A DNA stretch of 64,000 nt from Anaeroplasma bactoclasticum (GTDB lineage: Bacteria; Bacillota_I; Bacilli_A; Acholeplasmatales; Anaeroplasmataceae), in the NCBI GenBank assembly GCA_023663825.1, contig JAMPGQ010000002.1, positions 2,762 to 66,761 on the forward strand, given 5' to 3'. The notes under the pieces are model-generated. The model was given only the letters and a program-made list of their open reading frames with translations. It did not search any database and was not told where the DNA came from. Position numbers and translations under genes: made by a program. This document shows positions 3,135-37,245 of the stretch, piece by piece (positions within the stretch are counted from its first letter, which is position 1; every line of letters starts with the position of its first letter).

Positions 3135-5951
3135 CTATTGTATTTTTGTGACTGAACTTGTAGCAATCAAATTGCCTGTTACTGCTGGTGAAACAAATTT
3201 AACACGTATTGAAGTAATCAAAGGCGCATCAGAGAATCCACCTATTATCTCTCCATCATCATTAATATTGTGGGAAAAAGTGTAGCCAAGCGTTTCTCCA
3301 ATGAATACCTCTACAATAATTTGTCCACCAATTATATTTGGATTCTTGATTTTATAGCTAAAGTACCATGTTGCAGAATAGCTATCTTGTGTCAGCTTTG
3401 CATATATGATTTCAGGCGGAACACCATCAAACTTCTCTATACTATTGAAAATGATATTAAGTGGCTTATCTTGTTCACTAACTTTTGCTACCTTGAACTT
3501 TACATAATTTCCTTCTGGTAATGCATATCCTACTTTTGCTGAAGCTGAGATCTCTATAACATCACCCTCGTATATGTGTGCTCCTTGCGATAGGTTTCCC
3601 AAGGGCATTCCAACCTCTGAAGACAACCTAGTGGCTGTCCATGATACAACACCACTATCTACAGAAATGGTAAGCACTCGACGCATTGCCGCCTTAGCTA
3701 TTGATTCAAAAGGGATAGTTTTGCAATTTGTCAGTTTAATGGTAAAGATAAGCCTTTCTCGAGAATCTTTCCAAATTGTTTTTTGTGGTAATTCTAAAAA
3801 TTCCACATAGTTATTCCCAAAATAGTTAGGCAATTGTAAGGATTCATTGCGCGTTAAACTCATAATAGTACCTACTGATATTTTAAGTTCTGCTATCTCA
3901 TTGTTACTATCACAATATGAAACATCATTACACTGATAATTATTTGTACCACCAACCTTAAGAGCGCATTTATCAAAACTATACTGATCTAATGCTTCTG
4001 CATAAACATACACTGTGCTTCTTCTGACCATTACTGCAGCGCGTTTATATAATTCTCTGCCACATGCTTCTACTTTAATCCAACAATCTGATGATGGAAT
4101 TCCTGGAATATTTGAGCAATCATACTCCCAATAAATTGGACGATCAATAATATTATTTAATGGATTTTTCGTTTCATTATATTGTGTTTTAATACCTATG
4201 GCATCCGCAACTTTATTATAGTTTGCTACTAGATTAATAACTGCAACCTCTTTTTTTAATGATGAGGTAGTAATAACACTTGAAACAAACCAATCAATAC
4301 CATTTCGCTTAATTCGATTAAAGGCTTGTGGTGGAGCCTCATTTTTTGAAAGTTTGTATTCGATTGTACATTCTGGTAGTCCTGCCATATCATTGGTTAG
4401 TTCAATAGAATCAATCATTCTATCAAAATCAATAAAATTACTATTTTTATCATAGGTTCTAGCTAACCTTTTTATTTTGTTTTCATTAAAAGAACTTTCT
4501 CTTTTTACATCACTTATAAAAGGGTCTACAATAGGAATATATTCTATCCAATATGAATAGTCTAAGCTCTTATGATCATTATCATTTAATGTTCCAAAAT
4601 TTATATAATGCGTAGCTTTCAGGTTTGTCAAATACTCTCCTGGATATTCTTCAGAGATTTCCTCTATACTATTATATTGATTTAAGAATGGCCCTACCGT
4701 ATTTCCTATTAAAGAGTTCCAAAAGTCATTTTTATAATAGTTGTTCATCCCTTCGATTCGATTAGATCCTGACTCATAATAAACATATTTTGGCTTTTCT
4801 CTATCCTCTAATAGCATCCATTTATCTTTGGGTAAAATTCTATTGGACAAATTTAGTCTAGCCATAAATTCTATCTCACCTTTTTTCCCTGATGAATCAA
4901 CAGTATATAGAGCATATGGCATGTTATCATTTAGACGACTAATTCTCCAGAAACTATTTAATATAATCTCGGAGTCTATATTAAACCCATTGACAATAAT
5001 AGGAAGGAAATAGTCAAGAGGAGACTCCCCATTATAGATAATGATTGCTTGCCAATCTCTAAAAGTTTTGACATCACCAATAGAAACAGTAGCATCTATT
5101 ATAGATGAATATTTCTCCCTATCAAAATTAATCATCCCTTCAAAAGTTTGTGGAAGTTCGGTCCAAAAGTCCAACACCTTCTCACATCTAGTAGGTAAAA
5201 ATAAGATACTATTATCTTCAGACATATGAACTTCATCTGCACGTAATGTTAGTGATGATACTACAATGGGATTAGTTCTATCAATTACGTTTGTCATCTC
5301 GGATTCCAAAATGGCACCATAGGTGTCACTATCCTGTGTATAGTATTCATCTAGTATGCCACTATCCTTCAAACTATAAGTTGAATCGTCTAATATAAAG
5401 TTTATAATGAATTCGTTTTTGGAGGGATTATAGTCTACAACTTTTACTTTAACACTATCATATGATTTTACAATTTCTAATAAGGCATCATAGATAGTTG
5501 TTCCAGGTCCGAAAGGAAACTCTTGTTCTTTATCCAAAATCATACAATCTGGAAATACGAAGCTTACCCCATATTTTTCTTTCATCAAATCAACGATTAT
5601 TTCTAGTTTTTCGTAGTCTTTTTTATGACTTCCTGTAGCACTAAAACTTTTACTTCCTAATACATAACATGACAGTATTGAAGTTAATTCTAACAATTCA
5701 ATATTGTGTATATAATAGCCTTCCATAGTTAAATATTTTCTGCATGTTGATTTGGCAAACCACAATTCATTACTATTTATTCTTAGAGGCGTATAGGGAG
5801 GGATGTTTGTGCTCAGGTGGTATCTAAGCTGCAAAGATCCTGTAGCAAAAGCGTCATCACATCGGTTTTGTCTAACGACATCATTCATTTGCAGATAAGG
5901 GGTAGCATCTTGCCAATTATCATTTAAATACAATTCTACTTTGCTAATCAT
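3135..5951 (-). CDS. large phage tail structural protein (938 aa)
   Basis: Longest ORF in the tail module, at the position typical of a tail-associated or baseplate protein. No coiled-coil or TM signature, so not a tape measure. Confidence 0.4.
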   Translation of the reverse strand: MISKVELYLNDNWQDATPYLQMNDVVRQNRCDDAFATGSLQLRYHLSTNIPPYTPLRINSNELWFAKSTCRKYLTMEGYYIHNIELLELTSILSCYVLGSKSFSATGSHKKDYEKLEIIVDLMKEKYGVSFVFPDCMILDKEQEFPFGPGTTIYDALLEIVKSYDSVKVKVVDYNPSKNEFIINFILDDSTYSLKDSGILDEYYTQDSDTYGAILESEMTNVIDRTNPIVVSSLTLRADEVHMSEDNSILFLPTRCEKVLDFWTELPQTFEGMINFDREKYSSIIDATVSIGDVKTFRDWQAIIIYNGESPLDYFLPIIVNGFNIDSEIILNSFWRISRLNDNMPYALYTVDSSGKKGEIEFMARLNLSNRILPKDKWMLLEDREKPKYVYYESGSNRIEGMNNYYKNDFWNSLIGNTVGPFLNQYNSIEEISEEYPGEYLTNLKATHYINFGTLNDNDHKSLDYSYWIEYIPIVDPFISDVKRESSFNENKIKRLARTYDKNSNFIDFDRMIDSIELTNDMAGLPECTIEYKLSKNEAPPQAFNRIKRNGIDWFVSSVITTSSLKKEVAVINLVANYNKVADAIGIKTQYNETKNPLNNIIDRPIYWEYDCSNIPGIPSSDCWIKVEACGRELYKRAAVMVRRSTVYVYAEALDQYSFDKCALKVGGTNNYQCNDVSYCDSNNEIAELKISVGTIMSLTRNESLQLPNYFGNNYVEFLELPQKTIWKDSRERLIFTIKLTNCKTIPFESIAKAAMRRVLTISVDSGVVSWTATRLSSEVGMPLGNLSQGAHIYEGDVIEISASAKVGYALPEGNYVKFKVAKVSEQDKPLNIIFNSIEKFDGVPPEIIYAKLTQDSYSATWYFSYKIKNPNIIGGQIIVEVFIGETLGYTFSHNINDDGEIIGGFSDAPLITSIRVKFVSPAVTGNLIATSSVTKIQ

Positions 5952-30385: not shown

Positions 30386-30988
30386 CTAGTTTGCGTGCTT
30401 ACCACCTTTTAGATATCCTCTTTCGTTAAAGTATCTAAACATAGTGGCATTTGATAGTCCTAGTCTATCGCTAGCCTCATTACATGTCAGTTGCCCATTT
30501 TTATACATCAATCCTATTTCATCAATGTTAGGGGGAAGAATCGCTTTAGGCCTTCCAAACTTGATGCCTCTTGCTTTTGCAGCTGCAATTCCTTGAGCCT
30601 GTCTTTTAAGTATGTTCTCACGTTCAACTTGAGCCACATAGGATAATAAATTTAAGACTATATCTGTAATAAGTTTAGAGGTTAAGTCATCTTTGGAAGT
30701 ATCTAATATAGGCATATCTAAGATTTTAATTTTAATCCCTCTGGCACTTAAGTATTGCCATTCTTGTTTTATCTGATCATAGTTTCTACCAAATCTGTCA
30801 AGGGACAGAACGATGAGAGTGTCCCCCCCCTTTAGCTTTTTTCTCATCCTTTGATAATTCTTTCTTTCAAAATCTTTACCACTCTGTTTATCCTGGTACA
30901 GTACATAGGGCCTGTACTTCTCAAACTCTGCAATTTGTCTATCTAGATTTTGGTCTTCTGTACTAACTCTGGCATAACAATATATCAT
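30386..30988 (-). CDS. small serine recombinase (Hin/Gin/resolvase family DNA invertase); contains a G8 homopolymer
   Basis: MIYCYARVSTEDQNLDRQ with the catalytic Ser, GDTLIVLSLDRFGRN, and a C-terminal HTH. The track ORF runs to 31129, but the conserved start is the Met at 30988. The C8 run at 30823-30830 encodes KGGD. Confidence 0.7.
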   Translation of the reverse strand: MIYCYARVSTEDQNLDRQIAEFEKYRPYVLYQDKQSGKDFERKNYQRMRKKLKGGDTLIVLSLDRFGRNYDQIKQEWQYLSARGIKIKILDMPILDTSKDDLTSKLITDIVLNLLSYVAQVERENILKRQAQGIAAAKARGIKFGRPKAILPPNIDEIGLMYKNGQLTCNEASDRLGLSNATMFRYFNERGYLKGGKHAN

Positions 30989-31366
30989 TGCGGTATTCCC
31001 TCCTTTATTGGCTACCAAGATCAAGCGCCCGTTCACTAATGTGTAAATTGGGAGGTAATAGTTTGATGATTGCATCTGGAACGTATTATTAACGAGCAAT
31101 GCTCGGCGCTTGATTTCGACTAGAGCCACCTAGTCATCATCGGTTGGCTTTATTTAATTTTAATCTGCATTTGTTAGAATACTTATCAGATTATCGAGTT
31201 CTGATATAACCTCTTTCTTAAATTGTTCACCATAGATATACTTATTTATCAATCCTATTAGGGTATCATAGGACTTTTGTTCTTCCTGGGTTAAATAGTC
31301 TATTGGCATATGTTTCTTCTCCTCTTGGTTCACATCGTGTTATAATTATTTAAAGGAGGTGTCATT

Positions 31367-32002: not shown

Positions 32003-32230
32003 CTATTCCTCCTTATTTTTGTTTGCAAAAATCATAACCAATTCTTCAATAGATGAATTAAGTACAACTGCCAATTTTGCTATGCTTGCACAACTTGGCT
32101 CACTTTTACCCCTACACCATCTATAAATTGTTGTATGAGTTTTATTCATAACTTTACCTAAGGATTCCTGGGTAAATCCTCTGTTTTTAACTAATTCTTC
32201 AAATGTCATATCTTGTCCTTTCTTTTGCAC
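32003..32230 (-). CDS. Cro-like XRE HTH regulator
   Basis: HTH segment FTQESLGKVMNKTHTTIYRWCRGK. Divergent from the cI-like repressor across an operator-rich region. Confidence 0.5.
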   Translation of the reverse strand: MQKKGQDMTFEELVKNRGFTQESLGKVMNKTHTTIYRWCRGKSEPSCASIAKLAVVLNSSIEELVMIFANKNKEE

Positions 32231-32689
32231 GTTTTTAGTGCTATAATTGATTTGTCAGCTATTGTTGGCAGGAAGGGGGTATTTGGCTTGAAGAAACTTC
32301 TTAAAGCCTTAATGCCTATGCCCTGTTGTTTTGTAATTGCAATGCTTACGGCATAAATTTCTTCCACCTGAACAATAACCGGTAAAGTGAGCGTCCTTCC
32401 ACAGAAAAGAACAGTGCATTCTGTTCTTATAATACTAATTGTAGAGAAAAGTTAATTGAACTTTTTTGGGGGTATTGGTTTCCGATATCTTCATAATTTG
32501 GATATTAACCTTTCTCACCGGTGGTGGTGCAAACACCTAAAAAGCACCTATAAAATCCTTTAGTATTATTGCAGGAGTTTAAACTAAACAAATATTGCAT
32601 CGAAGGTAATGTGAATGCACGCATTGCCTTTTTTGTTCTATTCGTTTCCAAATACCCCTTTTCTGCCAACAATAGTCGACCTCTATTCC

Positions 32690-32815
32690 TCCTATTTTGT
32701 GCACTATTTGTGCTATCTACATCCGTTATAACACAGGACGTGCACTTTGTCAACACTTTTGTTCGCTTTTTGTGCAAATAATTGCGTTTATAGTGCAAAA
32801 AATGTACAATATTAT
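32690..32815. promoter_or_regulatory. phage genetic-switch operator/promoter region with GTGCAC-based operators and the repressor promoter (TTGCGT-17-TACAAT)
   Basis: Operator-like sites TGTGCACTATTTGTGCTATC (32698-32717), GTGCACTTTGTCAAC, TTGTGCAAATAA and AGTGCAAAAAATGTACAAT. The last overlaps the -10 element of the promoter for 32835. Confidence 0.5.
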
Positions 32816-32834
32816 TAAAAAAGGAGCCAATTAT

Positions 32835-33179
32835 ATGACAAATAAAAGACTAAGAGAACTAAGATTAGAAAAGAGAATGACTTTAAGAGAGCTAAGCGAA
32901 AAATTGAATATATCATACTCAAATATTGCCATGATAGAAAGAGGCGAAAGAAATTTAACTGCTGATACAGCTAAAATTTTTTCAAGTTTTTTTAGTGTAT
33001 CTACAGATTATTTACTTGGGCTGACTGATGAAAGAAATGCTACAATTTCTTCTTCTATCAAAGACCAATTATCAGATGCTCAAATTGCTTTTTATAATCA
33101 CACCGAAAATCTTACGGATGAACAAATGCTTGATGTCATAAAATATGTAGAATTCTTAAAAAGCAAAGAGAATAAATAA
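32835..33179 (+). CDS. cI-like XRE-family repressor with C-terminal oligomerisation-type domain
   Basis: ATG at 32835 with RBS AAAGGAG. HTH segment MTLRELSEKLNISYSNIAMIERGERN. C-terminus EQMLDVIKYVEFLKSKENK. Confidence 0.55.
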   Translation: MTNKRLRELRLEKRMTLRELSEKLNISYSNIAMIERGERNLTADTAKIFSSFFSVSTDYLLGLTDERNATISSSIKDQLSDAQIAFYNHTENLTDEQMLDVIKYVEFLKSKENK

Positions 33180-33225
33180 TCTCATTTTCTCGGTACTGTA
33201 TTATAATTTGTAATAAAAGGAGCTG

Positions 33226-33576
33226 GTGGAATTGAATAATTTAAGATTTTTAAGACAGGATTTGCATATGACCCTTAGGGAATTGGCAGACAGGGTCCAT
33301 ATAGATTTTTCTGCACTATCTAGAGCAGAAAATGGAAGGCGCAATTTGAATGATAATGATATAATGATATTAACAAATTTTTTCAATGTGTCATCTGACT
33401 ATCTTCTAGGTCTCTCAGACAAAAGAGTGCCCGAGCCAATCGCCACTCCTTCTGCAGCACCTATTCAAGATGAGGCTCTTATAGCCCTTTATAATCAAAC
33501 GGAGGGCTTGAGCAAGGAACAGATGGATCAAGTTATTAGTTATGTTCAATTCTTGAAAAGTAAGGAGAACAAATAA
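33226..33576 (+). CDS. second XRE-family regulator, paralog of the cI-like repressor
   Basis: Aligns along its whole length with 32835..33179 (HTH MTLRELADRVHIDFSALSRAENGRRN, identical C-terminal FLKSKENK). A TATAAT -10 element lies at 33202-33207. Confidence 0.5.
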   Translation: MELNNLRFLRQDLHMTLRELADRVHIDFSALSRAENGRRNLNDNDIMILTNFFNVSSDYLLGLSDKRVPEPIATPSAAPIQDEALIALYNQTEGLSKEQMDQVISYVQFLKSKENK

Positions 33577-33619
33577 AAAAAATCCCAATTAAGGGAGTAA
33601 GGGAAAGGATAGAGGAAAT

Positions 33620-35158
33620 ATGGATGAATATGTAGAAAAACAACTTAAAGAAATTTTTTCAAATTTTACGAAAAGACCTGTAGCTTTTATAGGATCTGGC
33701 ATTAGCAAAAGATACCTTGATACTCCTACTTGGATAGGATTACTCAAGAAGACGTTCAATGAATATAATAGCAATATTGCTGAATTTGGTCAAATGCTCA
33801 GAAAATATGGCGATACCCATTTAGATCAAGTAGCCTCTAATATAGAAAACGACTATGATAGCTATTTCATTCATCATATCTGCACAAATCCGAATCATAA
33901 AAATTATCAACTGTATTTAGAGAATAAGAATGCAATTGATAATGGCAAAATACATCCTTACAAAATATATACAGCTAATGTCTTTAAGCAAGCCTCTTTA
34001 AACGCTATATTTAACGATGAGAGAAATGAATTTATATCCTTTATAGGTAAATGTGCAAATATTATAACTACTAACTATGACACCCTTTTAGAAAACATTT
34101 CTAATCTGGACACCATTATAGGAAGCAAGGACTTTATAAGTGAAAAATGCATAGGGTATGGTGAGTTATACAAAATACATGGTTGTTGCAGTAATCCAAA
34201 TTCTATGGTACTTACTGCTGAAGATTATCAAAACTTTAATGAGAAAAAGTCTTTTTACCATGCAAAGCTTCTTCTTTCGTTTATTCAACAACCAATTATC
34301 TTTTTGGGGTATTCCTTAAGTGATGGCTATATAGAAGGGATTTTGGAGGATGTGGCCAAAATGCTAGACGATGAAGATCTTGAAGTTTTAAGCAAAAGAC
34401 TTGTCTTCGTTGAGTATACAGAAACTCCACAGACAAGCATACGTGAGAAAATAATTAAAAAACTCCAAATGACATGCATTAGAACGAACGACTATAAAAC
34501 AATTTATAGATTAATGTCTGAAAATGTTAGAGAAGGAATCCCGCTAGACTTAGTTAAAAGGTTCCAAGAAGCTGTAAAAAACTTTATTTATGAGCAGGAT
34601 AACCCTAAGGCACTACCAGTAACAGGTATTAACGACATCAAAGATCCTAGAGGGCTCACTGCATTTCATATAGGGTCTAAACCAGTCAGTGACAATTCTT
34701 CTCTTTTCACTTCTAGAGATTTGTTAAACGACATACTTTATAACACTGGAAGGCTGCCAAATAGTGATGTAATAATCGATAAAATCCATTCTGAGGCATT
34801 AAGATTTCCAAGAGAAGCATTTACACCTCTTTATAAATATTATAATAATTCTAGCAAAAAATATTCTTTATCTGATTTATCAAAAACATTTATAACAAAC
34901 GTGTTGGATTTAAAAAAAGGCCCCGACAAGTATATAGCCAAAAATTTTATAGATTTAAAACAAAAGATTGAATCTTCATGCAACAATGAAAATGACGTAC
35001 TCCAGCTATTATTGAAAAATATTGAATTGTGTGACTCTAAATTTCTTCGTGACACATTGACAAATATTCATCCTAATCCTTTCAGCAGTGAGGAAAAGGT
35101 AGATACAAAATACCGAAAATTGATTGCGGCTATAGATTTTTTAGAAAACGGACAATAA
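33620..35158 (+). CDS. SIR2-like (sirtuin-fold, ThsA/DSR-type) protein with an uncharacterised ~260-aa C-terminal domain; candidate NAD-depleting anti-phage/abortive-infection effector
   Basis: Gly-rich N-terminus VAFIGSGISKRY, TTNYDTLLE (catalytic Asn), KIHGCCSNP (catalytic His) and IIFLGYSLSD, the order expected for a defense-type SIR2 domain. No TIR, HerA or pAgo partner lies nearby. Confidence 0.65.
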   Translation: MDEYVEKQLKEIFSNFTKRPVAFIGSGISKRYLDTPTWIGLLKKTFNEYNSNIAEFGQMLRKYGDTHLDQVASNIENDYDSYFIHHICTNPNHKNYQLYLENKNAIDNGKIHPYKIYTANVFKQASLNAIFNDERNEFISFIGKCANIITTNYDTLLENISNLDTIIGSKDFISEKCIGYGELYKIHGCCSNPNSMVLTAEDYQNFNEKKSFYHAKLLLSFIQQPIIFLGYSLSDGYIEGILEDVAKMLDDEDLEVLSKRLVFVEYTETPQTSIREKIIKKLQMTCIRTNDYKTIYRLMSENVREGIPLDLVKRFQEAVKNFIYEQDNPKALPVTGINDIKDPRGLTAFHIGSKPVSDNSSLFTSRDLLNDILYNTGRLPNSDVIIDKIHSEALRFPREAFTPLYKYYNNSSKKYSLSDLSKTFITNVLDLKKGPDKYIAKNFIDLKQKIESSCNNENDVLQLLLKNIELCDSKFLRDTLTNIHPNPFSSEEKVDTKYRKLIAAIDFLENGQ

Positions 35159-35512
35159 AAAAAGGGGCACTTTGAAACTCTACTCTACAAGAATAGTTTT
35201 CTAGTTCACATAGCTCTCCGAACTACTAAACAAGTGCTCTTCTTTTATTCTTCCGGATACATATATTTTACCATGGTTAAATTTTTTGTCAATACCTTTT
35301 TCGGTGCAATTGCACCATTTTTGTTAACTTTTTTGTGCCATGGGGCTAAAAATCAGTAGTTGCAACTCAATCAAAGCCATTACTAGCGTATGCACATATA
35401 CCTATATTTATACACATTAAAATAACTATGAGAGATAAAATATGAAGTTAGATAATCTCACTAAACTAGAACAAGAGGCTACAGAGCATAACATAAAGTC
35501 TTCTATGCAGAT

Positions 35513-35746
35513 ATGTCTAAAATGCCTTCAGATGCTCTTATCCTCTTCTATCAGGGAGAATATACCATCTTAATTGAAAGGTCCCTAGACAGGGAGAATA
35601 AGGCCATAAGACTTGCCCATGAATTAGCACATTACCATACCTGCACCTTGAGCAAATACAATTCCTCAAAAGAGGAAATCGAAAATAATGAAAGAATAGC
35701 TGTTGAATATAATATACTTAAAAGGAAGGAGGAATCTAATCAATGA
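35513..35746 (+). pseudogene. ImmA/IrrE-family (HEXXH) metallopeptidase remnant, truncated at both ends
   Basis: ILIERSLDRENKAIRLAHELAHY matches the ImmA zinc-binding core. It has only 77 aa and the N-terminal half is missing (stops in frame upstream). Confidence 0.4.
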
Positions 35747-37245
35747 AAGCTGCATTATATACACGTGTTTCTACAGATGAACAAGTTGAAAAAGGTTTCT
35801 CCTTAGAAGCTCAAAAAAGGCGTTTGATGGAATATTGCATAAAGAACAACTATGAGATTTATAGGCTTTATAGAGATGAAGGAATATCTGGTCATTCTAT
35901 TTCAAAGAGAAAGTCACTCCAGGAAATGTTGCAGGATGCAAGAGAAAAAAAGTTTGATTGTGTAGTCGTATATAAGACTGATCGTTTATCCAGGAATCTT
36001 TTAGACCTTCTGACAATAAAAAAAGAACTCGATGCTGCAGATATCGAGTTGATAATGTCTGATGAATCCGTTGACACTTCTGATGATACAGGAATGGCCA
36101 TGTTTTCTATTATGGGCGCCTTTGCAGAGCTAGAACGTAAAAAGATAAGCGAACGTCTAATGTCCGGAAAAAGACAAAAGATGAGAACAACAGGAATCAA
36201 GCCAAAACACGGGGTAATTCCTTATGCGTATATTTATGATGACATCAACAAGCAATACATAGTAGATGAAAGATATCGCCAGGATATAATTAGGATGTAT
36301 GAGATGTATGATGCTGGATCTTCTTATAATGAGATAGCACAATATATGGTAAATAACAATTTGAATTTTGGTCGAAGTAGAAATAGATGGCACGCTTCAG
36401 ACATACCACGAGTCTTAAAAAATCCAACGTATAAAGGATGGACTGGTATTTCCTACTATAATCATGTACATACCTCACTCAAATATGTAAATGATACAAT
36501 TCTCGTCAAGGCTACCAACGTGGAGCCAATTGTATCTGAAGAACTATGGGATCGTGTAAACAGTAGGGCTAATATTAAAAGTACTTACTTTGTCCGAAAG
36601 TACCCAAGTGATGTATTTATTTTTGCTGGATTACTATACTGTAGCAGTTGTGGATATCGTCTATCTACCAATCAGTCTACAGAGCGAGTTACAAAAAATG
36701 GAAAAGTTCGCTACTTCTATTATGAATGCAATTCTAAATTTAAGATATATACTAGTGAGGAAAAATGCCCTGGATTCAATATTAATAAAGATTCTTTTGA
36801 AGCTATGTTTAAAAAATTTATTAGTGGAATTTCCTCTAATAAAAAGTTTTCAAAAAAGTATAGTTCGGATGAGGCAACTGAACTAGTTAAGAAAAGGGAC
36901 AGTATCAACTATCAAATCACTACCAAGAACCGACAACGAGAAATACTATTAGAGAAACTCTCATGTCAAACTATCACAGATGATGATTTCAAATTAATGT
37001 CTAATAAACTAGTAATGGATATACAAATGCTTGCTAAAGAATTAGAAACAATCGAGAAGAGCATTTCTACAATATCAGATAAGATTGAATATGAGAATGC
37101 TATTTTAGACCATATTAATACTCTTACCTCTTTAATCAAGACATGGGACATAATTCCTAATGAGGAAAAGAAATTAATATTACATAAGTGCATCAAAAGG
37201 ATTTATGTAAATAGATCTGGAATCACCAAAATAGAATTCATCTAA
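35743..37245 (+). CDS. large serine recombinase (phage integrase)
   Basis: N-terminal resolvase domain LYTRVSTDEQ with the catalytic Ser, and VVYKTDRLSRN. Recombinase and zinc-ribbon regions (CSSCGYRL...YYECNS). C-terminal coiled coil. 500 aa. Confidence 0.85.
   Translation: MKAALYTRVSTDEQVEKGFSLEAQKRRLMEYCIKNNYEIYRLYRDEGISGHSISKRKSLQEMLQDAREKKFDCVVVYKTDRLSRNLLDLLTIKKELDAADIELIMSDESVDTSDDTGMAMFSIMGAFAELERKKISERLMSGKRQKMRTTGIKPKHGVIPYAYIYDDINKQYIVDERYRQDIIRMYEMYDAGSSYNEIAQYMVNNNLNFGRSRNRWHASDIPRVLKNPTYKGWTGISYYNHVHTSLKYVNDTILVKATNVEPIVSEELWDRVNSRANIKSTYFVRKYPSDVFIFAGLLYCSSCGYRLSTNQSTERVTKNGKVRYFYYECNSKFKIYTSEEKCPGFNINKDSFEAMFKKFISGISSNKKFSKKYSSDEATELVKKRDSINYQITTKNRQREILLEKLSCQTITDDDFKLMSNKLVMDIQMLAKELETIEKSISTISDKIEYENAILDHINTLTSLIKTWDIIPNEEKKLILHKCIKRIYVNRSGITKIEFI

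What the first reader, a model, noticed from the sequence alone, without database searches (positions are those of the whole stretch)
33620..35158. Prophage-borne solitary SIR2-like gene: candidate single-gene NADase defense/abortive-infection module
A 512-aa protein has an N-terminal SIR2 (sirtuin-fold) domain of the bacterial defense type, a different class from the deacetylase sirtuins. Its motifs are a Gly-rich loop FIGSGIS, TTNYD with the catalytic Asn, KIHG with the catalytic His about 35 aa later, and GYSLSD. This Asn/His arrangement matches ThsA and DSR, where the domain hydrolyses NAD+ on phage sensing. Here the C-terminal ~260 aa are not SLOG, TIR, HerA, APAZ or a DSR-size extension. 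No ThsB/TIR, HerA or pAgo partner lies within 10 kb. The gene sits between the repressor and the integrase, the classic moron/defense position in a prophage. It is co-oriented with, and 43 bp downstream of, a dedicated XRE paralog, so it is probably expressed in the lysogen. It would be a compact SIR2 effector fused to a new putative sensor domain.
Basis: partly seen in the sequence, partly recalled or inferred. Interest (0 to 1): 0.8.

Follow-up and report, generated by a model that had tools for sequence, protein, structure and literature searches.

The report
Prophage SIR2 defence candidate (PDC-S25 family)
A prophage in an Anaeroplasma-like genome carries, in its repressor operon, a 512-aa SIR2 protein of an already catalogued but untested single-gene anti-phage candidate family (PADLOC PDC-S25), which most likely kills infected cells by destroying NAD+; it is a solid but not a new kind of find.

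Summary

The architecture is not new. The protein matches PADLOC PDC-S25 end to end (E 3.7e-95) and PHROG 2695 end to end (E 3.9e-87). PDC-S25 is one of 145 candidates predicted by guilt-by-embedding, and I found no experimental test of it. The family is large and spans many phyla. Members recur in three contexts with no constant neighbour: prophage lysogeny modules, the region after prophage lysis cassettes, and inside type I R-M operons.

The "dedicated" XRE is an in-register tandem duplicate of the phage repressor gene with no operators of its own. XRE1-XRE2-SIR2 looks like one operon.

Most likely function: a lysogen-expressed, self-contained sensor-effector NADase causing abortive infection. 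This is inferred, not shown. It is a new member of a known kind, of moderate interest.

The parts
33620..35158 (+). SIR2-family gene, 512 aa, member of PADLOC PDC-S25 and PHROG 2695
   Evidence: ORF. PDC-S25 E 3.7e-95 full length. PHROG 2695 E 3.9e-87 full length. Identical protein in NCBI named 'SIR2 family protein'.
33620..34486 (+). N-terminal defence-type SIR2 domain (res 1-289). It includes the Gly-rich loop at 33686-33706, the Asn152 codon at 34073-34075 and the His187 codon at 34178-34180.
   Evidence: Pfam SIR2_2. N152, D154, H187 and G188 are invariant in 98 homologs. N152 aligns to BcThsA N112, and H187 to BcThsA H152 and KomC H146. Foldseek top hits are ThsA, DSR2 and KomC. pLDDT is mostly above 90.
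34487..34693 (+). Two bridging helices and a disordered linker (res 290-358)
   Evidence: AF2 model: helices 292-302 and 309-324, with pLDDT below 50 at 333-339 and 344-358.
34694..35155 (+). C-terminal all-alpha domain (res 359-512), family-specific and fast-evolving; putative sensor or regulatory domain
33226..33576 (+). XRE2, an HTH_3 repressor paralog directly upstream; the TTG at 33232 is the more likely start
   Evidence: Pfam HTH_3 E 4.3e-11. 51% identical to XRE1. In-register tandem duplicate, with D1, D3 and D8 spaced 396-397 nt. The RBS AAAGGAG at 33216-33222 is only 3 nt from the GTG but 9 nt from the TTG.
32835..33179 (+). XRE1, the CI/ImmR-like phage repressor at the switch position
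   Evidence: Pfam HTH_3 E 1.5e-13. Divergent from the Cro-like HTH gene at 32003-32230 (-). Operator-like GTGCA repeats at 32690-32805 overlap its promoter-like site at 32787-32815.
33577..33619 (+). 43-nt XRE2-SIR2 spacer with an AGAGGA RBS and no terminator
   Evidence: Sequence. There is no + strand terminator-like site between 32631 and 35303.
35303..35316 (+). Terminator-like hairpin with a T-run, 145 nt after the SIR2 stop; likely end of the XRE1-XRE2-SIR2 unit
35513..35746 (+). Short ImmA/IrrE (M78)-like ORF with HEXXH, possibly truncated at the N-terminus. It belongs to the lysogeny module and is not a fixed SIR2 partner.
   Evidence: Pfam Peptidase_M78 E 5.7e-5. Homologs in L004 and L006 lie on either side of the SIR2 gene.
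35743..37245 (+). Large serine recombinase (prophage integrase) marking the prophage end
   Evidence: Resolvase + Recombinase + Zn_ribbon_recom domains. Host genes follow.

Best explanation
The gene encodes a self-contained, single-protein anti-phage (abortive-infection) NADase of the PDC-S25 family, carried as cargo in the lysogeny operon of a prophage. It is probably co-transcribed with the repressor genes XRE1 and XRE2, so it would be made in the lysogen (inferred from operon structure). In uninfected cells the N-terminal SIR2 domain would be held inactive. The fast-evolving C-terminal all-alpha domain would recognise a cue from a superinfecting phage, most plausibly a phage protein, by analogy with DSR2. 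That would release or oligomerise the SIR2 domain, which hydrolyses NAD+ through the conserved Asn152/His187 site. NAD+ depletion would arrest the cell and stop the invading phage, protecting the lysogen population and the resident prophage. Shown here: family membership, the conserved catalytic residues and fold, the solitary status, and the recurrent prophage and R-M contexts. Inferred: the NADase chemistry, the sensor role of the C-terminal domain, the trigger, and expression in the lysogen.
For: Full-length PDC-S25 and PHROG 2695 matches. SIR2_2 domain. N152 and H187 are invariant in 98 homologs. They align to ThsA N112/H152 and to KomC H146, the position altered in the deposited H146N variant. 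Every top structural neighbour is a defence NADase: ThsA 7.4e-10, DSR2 about 3e-9, KomC TMt 0.70. The next-best PADLOC hits are ThsA, SIR2-type LmuA and Dsr1, over the SIR2 core only. Close homologs occupy the same slot (repressor, SIR2, integrase) in prophages that use tyrosine integrases, and a 31% relative does so with a serine recombinase. IPP23 has the same order. Other members follow the lysis cassette or are embedded in type I R-M or defence islands. At least 15 of 80 species-representative loci have type I R-M genes within 5 kb. No neighbour is conserved across these contexts, and no PADLOC hit occurs among the local neighbours. The C-terminal domain diverges faster than the effector, 30% against 55% identity among close homologs. 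No terminator separates XRE1, XRE2 and SIR2, a good RBS precedes SIR2, and a terminator-like site follows it.
Against: No member of PDC-S25 has been tested; PADLOC lists it only as a candidate. The trigger is unknown. The C-terminal domain resembles nothing informative, so its sensor role is an argument from pattern. Expression in the lysogen rests on sequence signals alone, and promoter-like hits in this AT-rich region are no more frequent than in shuffles (24 against 26.8). The ImmA-like gene may be truncated, so the prophage could be defective.
Confidence: 0.6

Rival explanations
1. It is a two-component module in which XRE2, possibly together with the ImmA-like metalloprotease, is a functional partner. 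XRE2 would act either as a CapH/CapP-like damage-responsive transcriptional switch dedicated to the SIR2 gene, or as an HTH antitoxin neutralising a SIR2 toxin in an addiction module that stabilises the prophage.
For: An XRE gene lies directly upstream, with a gap of 28-43 nt, in the window and in close homologs. XRE1 and XRE2 hit the PADLOC capH model (1e-11 and 4.7e-7), and the 77-aa ORF hits capP weakly (0.0033). XRE2 has weak, sub-threshold NCBIfam similarity to the HigA, HipB and PezA antitoxins.
Against: In close homologs the upstream XRE is the only repressor at the cro/cI switch, so it is the phage repressor rather than a dedicated factor. XRE2 is an in-register tandem duplicate of XRE1 with no operators or clear promoter of its own. 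The ImmA-like ORF lies upstream of SIR2 in L004 and IPP23 but downstream in L006 and the window. Family members in R-M operons and after lysis cassettes have no XRE or ImmA neighbour. PADLOC models the system as a single gene.
Confidence: 0.12
2. It is an NAD+-dependent enzyme with a non-defence role for the phage or the lysogen. For example, it could be a protein deacylase or ADP-ribosyltransferase that modifies host or phage proteins (lysogenic conversion or regulation of the switch) rather than a bulk NADase.
For: The SIR2 superfamily includes deacylases and ADP-ribosyltransferases that use the same Asn/His pair. NCBI names some relatives 'NAD-dependent protein deacylase'. The gene sits in the regulatory region of the prophage.
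Against: There is no hit to the canonical sirtuin model and no Zn-ribbon. All sequence and structure neighbours are defence NADases. Embedding in type I R-M and defence islands recurs. The position varies between the two classical moron sites of prophages, which fits cargo rather than core regulation.
Confidence: 0.1
3. It is inert cargo in a decaying prophage and has no current function.
For: The ImmA-like ORF appears truncated or frameshifted compared with the 98-aa homolog. A related gene in Streptococcus phage IPP23 is split by a frameshift.
Against: The 512-aa ORF is intact and keeps every invariant family residue. It has a good RBS. The prophage keeps a full set of structural and replication genes. 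The locus is identical in two independent assemblies.
Confidence: 0.05

Closest known systems
PADLOC phage defence candidate PDC-S25 (Payne et al., bioRxiv 10.1101/2024.01.29.577857), equivalent to PHROG 2695
   Same: It matches the HMM end to end (E 3.7e-95), is about 510-540 aa with an N-terminal SIR2_2 domain and the family-specific C-terminal domain, is a single gene, and has relatives embedded in type I R-M operons.
   Different: Nothing structural differs. This copy is in the lysogeny operon of an Anaeroplasma-like prophage. It belongs to a distinct subclade, 44-53% identical to its nine closest relatives and about 25-30% to the bulk of the family.
DSR2 and DSR1 (defence-associated sirtuins)
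   Same: Both are single proteins with an N-terminal defence SIR2 NADase and the same Asn/His site, joined to a C-terminal helical region. In DSR2 that region binds a phage tail-tube protein. The SIR2 domains superpose (Foldseek about 3e-9, TMt about 0.6 on SIR2-only chains).
Thoeris ThsA (SIR2-SLOG)
   Same: It is the best non-PDC PADLOC hit (6.6e-17) and the best structural hit (8btp, 7.4e-10). N152 and H187 align with N112 and H152.
   Different: There is no SLOG domain, no ThsB/TIR partner nearby, and no evidence of signalling by a small molecule.
Kongming KomC (SIR2 NADase activated by dITP, forms filaments)
   Same: It is the closest solved SIR2 by sequence (E 2.4e-6) and has a high TM-score on the target (0.70). 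H187 aligns with H146.
   Different: KomC is a 264-aa SIR2-only protein that needs KomA and KomB. This protein has an extra C-terminal domain of about 220 aa and no partners.

Membership tests
PADLOC PDC-S25 (single-gene phage defence candidate) | Full-length match to the PDC-S25 HMM | tested here: met
   PDLC04968: E 3.7e-95, res 5-511 against model positions 10-515 of 517. The second model, PDLC04967, gives 2.4e-61.
PADLOC PDC-S25 (single-gene phage defence candidate) | A stand-alone gene with no conserved partner | tested here: met
   The neighbours differ across 12 or more annotated contexts. No PADLOC hits occur among the local neighbours.
PADLOC PDC-S25 (single-gene phage defence candidate) | Confers anti-phage protection | not testable with these tools
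   The family is a prediction from guilt-by-embedding. No validation was found.
Defence-type SIR2 (Pfam SIR2_2, PF13289) | Profile match above the gathering score, with the conserved Asn and His | tested here: met
   83.3 bits against a cutoff of 24.5. N152 and H187 are invariant and align to the ThsA and KomC catalytic positions.
Defence-type SIR2 (Pfam SIR2_2, PF13289) | NAD+ glycohydrolase activity | not testable with these tools
   This needs biochemistry.
Thoeris ThsA | C-terminal SLOG domain and a neighbouring ThsB (TIR) gene | tested here: not met
   The ThsA HMM covers only res 148-253. There is no SLOG or TIR Pfam hit in the protein or its neighbours.
DSR1 / DSR2 | A protein of about 1,000-1,200 aa with the DSR C-terminal region | tested here: not met
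SIR2-HerA (Nezha / Gao_Her) and SPARSA (SIR2-APAZ with short pAgo) | An adjacent HerA helicase, or an APAZ fusion with a pAgo gene | tested here: not met
   No such genes lie within about 10 kb. The PADLOC 'SIR2' models match only about 25 residues.
Lamassu LmuA (SIR2 effector type) | The LmuA C-terminal region plus an LmuB (SMC-like) partner | tested here: not met
   The LmuA HMM matches only model positions 8-224 of 433. There is no SMC-like neighbour in the window.
Canonical sirtuin deacylases (Pfam SIR2, PF02146) | Match to PF02146 and a Zn-ribbon module | tested here: not met
   There is no hit at E<=0.1 and no four-Cys motif in the sequence.

The most novel reading that the evidence does not exclude
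The family-specific C-terminal all-alpha domain, which has no solved or Pfam relative, is a new kind of direct phage-protein sensor. That would make PDC-S25 the smallest self-contained SIR2 sensor-effector, about half the size of DSR1 or DSR2. Its placement inside the repressor operon would tie immunity strictly to the lysogenic state and so avoid self-targeting on induction.
Probability: 0.4. Interest if true: 0.5.

Novelty: new member of a known kind. Interest (0 to 1): 0.35.

Why it matters
If validated, PDC-S25 would add a compact, widespread single-gene system to the set of NAD+-depleting defences. The C-terminal domain profile finds 1,139 clusters in the 50%-identity library, across many phyla. 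The contrast between a conserved effector and a fast-evolving C-terminal domain offers a simple system for finding what the sensor recognises. The prophage copies also show how temperate phages load such genes into the repressor operon. This particular locus adds an example and some context, but no new principle.

Tried and rejected
- **IMG/VR scan:** a scan with the single protein found no confirmed relative, because its patterns were too specific. The annotated phage collection did give 10 records.
- **NCBIfam:** there is no model for this protein.
- **AFDB50 fold search:** I wanted to look for the C-terminal fold on other effectors, but the library was unavailable. I used a C-terminal-only HMM search instead. 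It showed no alternative architecture in the top 150 hits; the weaker hits are not listed, so shuffling is not excluded.
- **Pfam scan of 100 profile hits:** I relied on the alignment instead, where TTN.D, KIHG and GYS..D are at least 90% conserved.
- **Payne et al. supplements:** a search for 'PDC-S25' or 'SIR2' found nothing in the held text.
- **Literature:** six searches for a validated ~520-aa solitary SIR2 found none.
- **Conserved element in the gap after SIR2:** rejected. The gaps share no sequence across loci except between the near-identical L006 and L007, and part of the gap is the uncalled N-terminus of the ImmA-like ORF.
- **FuFi-1 RNA linked to the SIR2 family:** rejected. It is absent from 13 homologous loci.
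- **ThsA, DSR, SIR2-HerA, SPARSA, KomC or LmuA membership:** each fails a defining feature (see the membership table).

Full report
**Observation.** The ORF at 33620..35158 (+) is real and encodes 512 aa. It contains FIGSGIS (23-29), TTNYD (150-154), KIHG (185-188) and GYSLSD (230-235). Pfam SIR2_2 (PF13289) matches residues 147-284 at E 2.4e-23, well above the gathering score. Nothing else matches at E<=0.1: no canonical sirtuin model, DUF4020, SLOG, TIR, HerA or APAZ. The gene follows a 43-nt spacer with an AGAGGA ribosome-binding site after an XRE gene. It lies between two XRE repressor paralogs on one side and a short ImmA-like ORF plus a large serine recombinase on the other. The upstream 32 kb is a prophage, with terminase, portal, head, tail, DNA polymerase, primase-helicase and exonuclease genes. 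Host genes follow the recombinase. The exact protein is in NCBI as 'SIR2 family protein [Anaeroplasma bactoclasticum]'. The whole 21.5-kb locus is identical in a MAG.

**What it is.** The decisive result is that the whole protein, not just the SIR2 part, matches existing family models. PADLOC PDC-S25 matches at E 3.7e-95 (residues 5-511 against model positions 10-515 of 517). PHROG 2695, of unknown function, matches at E 3.9e-87 over its full length. PDC-S25 is one of the 145 'phage defence candidates' that Payne et al. derived from genes embedded in BREX, DISARM and type I R-M loci and added to PADLOC. These are predictions, not tested systems. A 2026 paper says the same of PDC systems in general. 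The only paper that names PDC-S25 merely lists it in an E. coli O157:H7 strain. So the 'new sensor domain' architecture is already catalogued, although it is uncharacterised.

**Effector half.** In an alignment of 98 homologs, W38, E134, T150, T151, N152, D154, K185, H187, G188, D202, Y203, F228, G230, Y231, D235 and P403 are invariant. HMMER alignments to solved structures place N152 on BcThsA N112. They place H187 on BcThsA H152 and on KomC H146, the position mutated in the deposited KomC(H146N) entry. It is established knowledge, not tested here, that these are the catalytic residues of the ThsA and KomC NADases. An AlphaFold2 model built on the family alignment is confident (mean pLDDT 88.2). 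Its best PDB neighbours are all defence NADases: ThsA at 7.4e-10, DSR2 at about 3e-9, and KomC with TMt 0.70. All of them cover only the first ~300 residues.

**Context in relatives.** Close homologs (45-49% identity) occupy the same slot in other prophages: XRE repressor, SIR2, small ORFs, integrase, then host genes or a tRNA. Those prophages use tyrosine integrases. A 31% relative repeats the arrangement with a large serine recombinase. Streptococcus phage IPP23 has the same order. Other members lie just after the holin/endolysin cassette, as in Vagococcus and Bacillus phBC6A51. Others lie between hsdS and hsdR of a type I R-M operon, in a defence island between an Eco57I-like enzyme and Mrr/DEAD-helicase genes, or in a transposon-rich island next to a reverse transcriptase. 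At least 328 species-representative genomes from many phyla carry a relative. With a small seed set, at least 15 of 80 such loci have type I R-M genes within 5 kb, several with the SIR2 gene embedded, and at least 10 of 80 have an integrase nearby (lower bounds). No neighbour is constant. The short ImmA-like HEXXH ORF is upstream of the SIR2 gene in L004 and IPP23 but downstream in L006 and the window. It therefore belongs to the ImmR/ImmA-type lysogeny module, into which the SIR2 gene has been inserted. It is not part of a SIR2 system. Local neighbours give no PADLOC hit.

**The XRE question.** XRE1 and XRE2 are 51% identical. Direct repeats between them keep a constant 396-397-nt register and include the RBS region, so XRE2 is an in-register tandem duplicate of the repressor gene. 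Operator-like GTGCA repeats cluster only upstream of XRE1, at 32690-32805, and overlap its promoter-like site. None lies in the XRE1-XRE2 or XRE2-SIR2 spacers. No + strand terminator-like site occurs between 32631 and 35303. One follows the SIR2 stop by 145 nt. The simplest reading is a single XRE1-XRE2-SIR2 transcription unit under the prophage's own immunity control. That supports the idea of expression in the lysogen, as an inference, but not the idea of a dedicated regulator.

**Mechanism.** I commit to the following, at a confidence of about 0.6. This is a lysogen-expressed, single-protein abortive-infection NADase. The variable C-terminal domain senses a cue from a superinfecting phage and relieves inhibition of the SIR2 domain, which depletes NAD+ through N152 and H187. 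Direct recognition of a phage protein is the favoured trigger. The reasons are the pattern of a conserved effector with a fast-evolving helical domain, and the DSR2 precedent in which the C-terminal region binds the tail tube. Activation through oligomers or filaments, as in ThsA and KomC, is plausible but untested. Rival readings are less likely: an XRE- or ImmA-dependent two-component or toxin-antitoxin-like module (0.12), a non-defence NAD-dependent modifier (0.10), and inert cargo (0.05). The arguments are given under each rival.

**Verdict.** This is a new member, in a distinct subclade and in an unusual wall-less host lineage, of an already catalogued and widespread but experimentally untested candidate family, within the well-known class of SIR2 NAD+-depleting defences. 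Interest is moderate (0.35). The open questions are the trigger, the C-terminal domain and validation. They are real, but they concern the family as a whole rather than this locus.

Noticed in passing
window 32342-32634 (+), with flanking arms at 32254-32286 and 32648-32680: A FuFi-1 RNA (Rfam RF02986; 74.1 bits against a gathering score of 59.6; E 7.4e-14) sits in the prophage cro/cI switch region, upstream of XRE1 on the same strand, and ends in a terminator-like hairpin at 32602-32631. A 33-nt inverted repeat, 88% complementary, brackets it. The 436-nt region folds at -148 kcal/mol, against -95 +/- 6 for shuffles (z = -8.4), with the repeat forming a long closing stem. The right arm lies beyond the terminator, so the stem would form only in read-through RNA or at the DNA level. 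FuFi-1 has no known function (PMC5737381). It is absent from 13 homologous SIR2 loci.
   Followed up: partly
window 32812-33179 versus 33208-33576: XRE1 and XRE2 are an in-register tandem duplication of the repressor gene, including its RBS. The direct repeats are spaced 396-397 nt, the proteins are 51% identical, and both end in FLKSKENK. XRE2 could provide a second immunity specificity. One operator-like palindrome lies inside the XRE2 coding region at 33307-33332.
   Followed up: partly
window 35443-35746 (+): The ImmA/M78-like ORF (77 aa, with HEXXH) looks truncated at the N-terminus. An ATG at 35443, in another frame, encodes a peptide that loosely resembles the N-terminus of the 98-aa homolog in L004, which suggests a frameshift near 35505-35515. 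The prophage's anti-repressor protease may therefore be defective.
   Followed up: partly
window 35292-35265 (- strand): This is the strongest promoter-like site in the region (TTGACA, 16-nt spacer, TAAAAT with an upstream TG; 11 of 12 matches). It points antisense into the 3' end of the SIR2 gene. It could drive an antisense transcript, or it could be chance in AT-rich DNA, since the overall number of hits equals the shuffle expectation.
   Followed up: no
L001 (Streptococcus phage IPP23, KY065464.1), locus 3998-5589: The family gene is split by a frameshift in the linker region. A 357-aa ORF covers family profile positions 9-345, and the following 163-aa ORF covers 369-524. It may be a pseudogene, a sequencing error, or a naturally split two-chain form.
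   Followed up: partly
window 23620-45158, identical to L003 (GCA_023664425.1, JAMPFO010000003.1): The window is 100% identical over 21.5 kb to a MAG whose protein is labelled 'Roseburia sp.', whereas nr names the same protein Anaeroplasma bactoclasticum. The nearest genome relative of the SIR2 gene is an Anaeroplasmataceae MAG. The Roseburia label is probably a binning or labelling error.
   Followed up: no
window 30386-31129 (- strand): A second, small serine recombinase (Resolvase plus a weak HTH_7 match; 200-247 aa depending on the start codon) lies among the early lytic genes of the prophage, in addition to the large serine integrase. Its role (invertase, resolvase or other) is unknown.
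   Followed up: no
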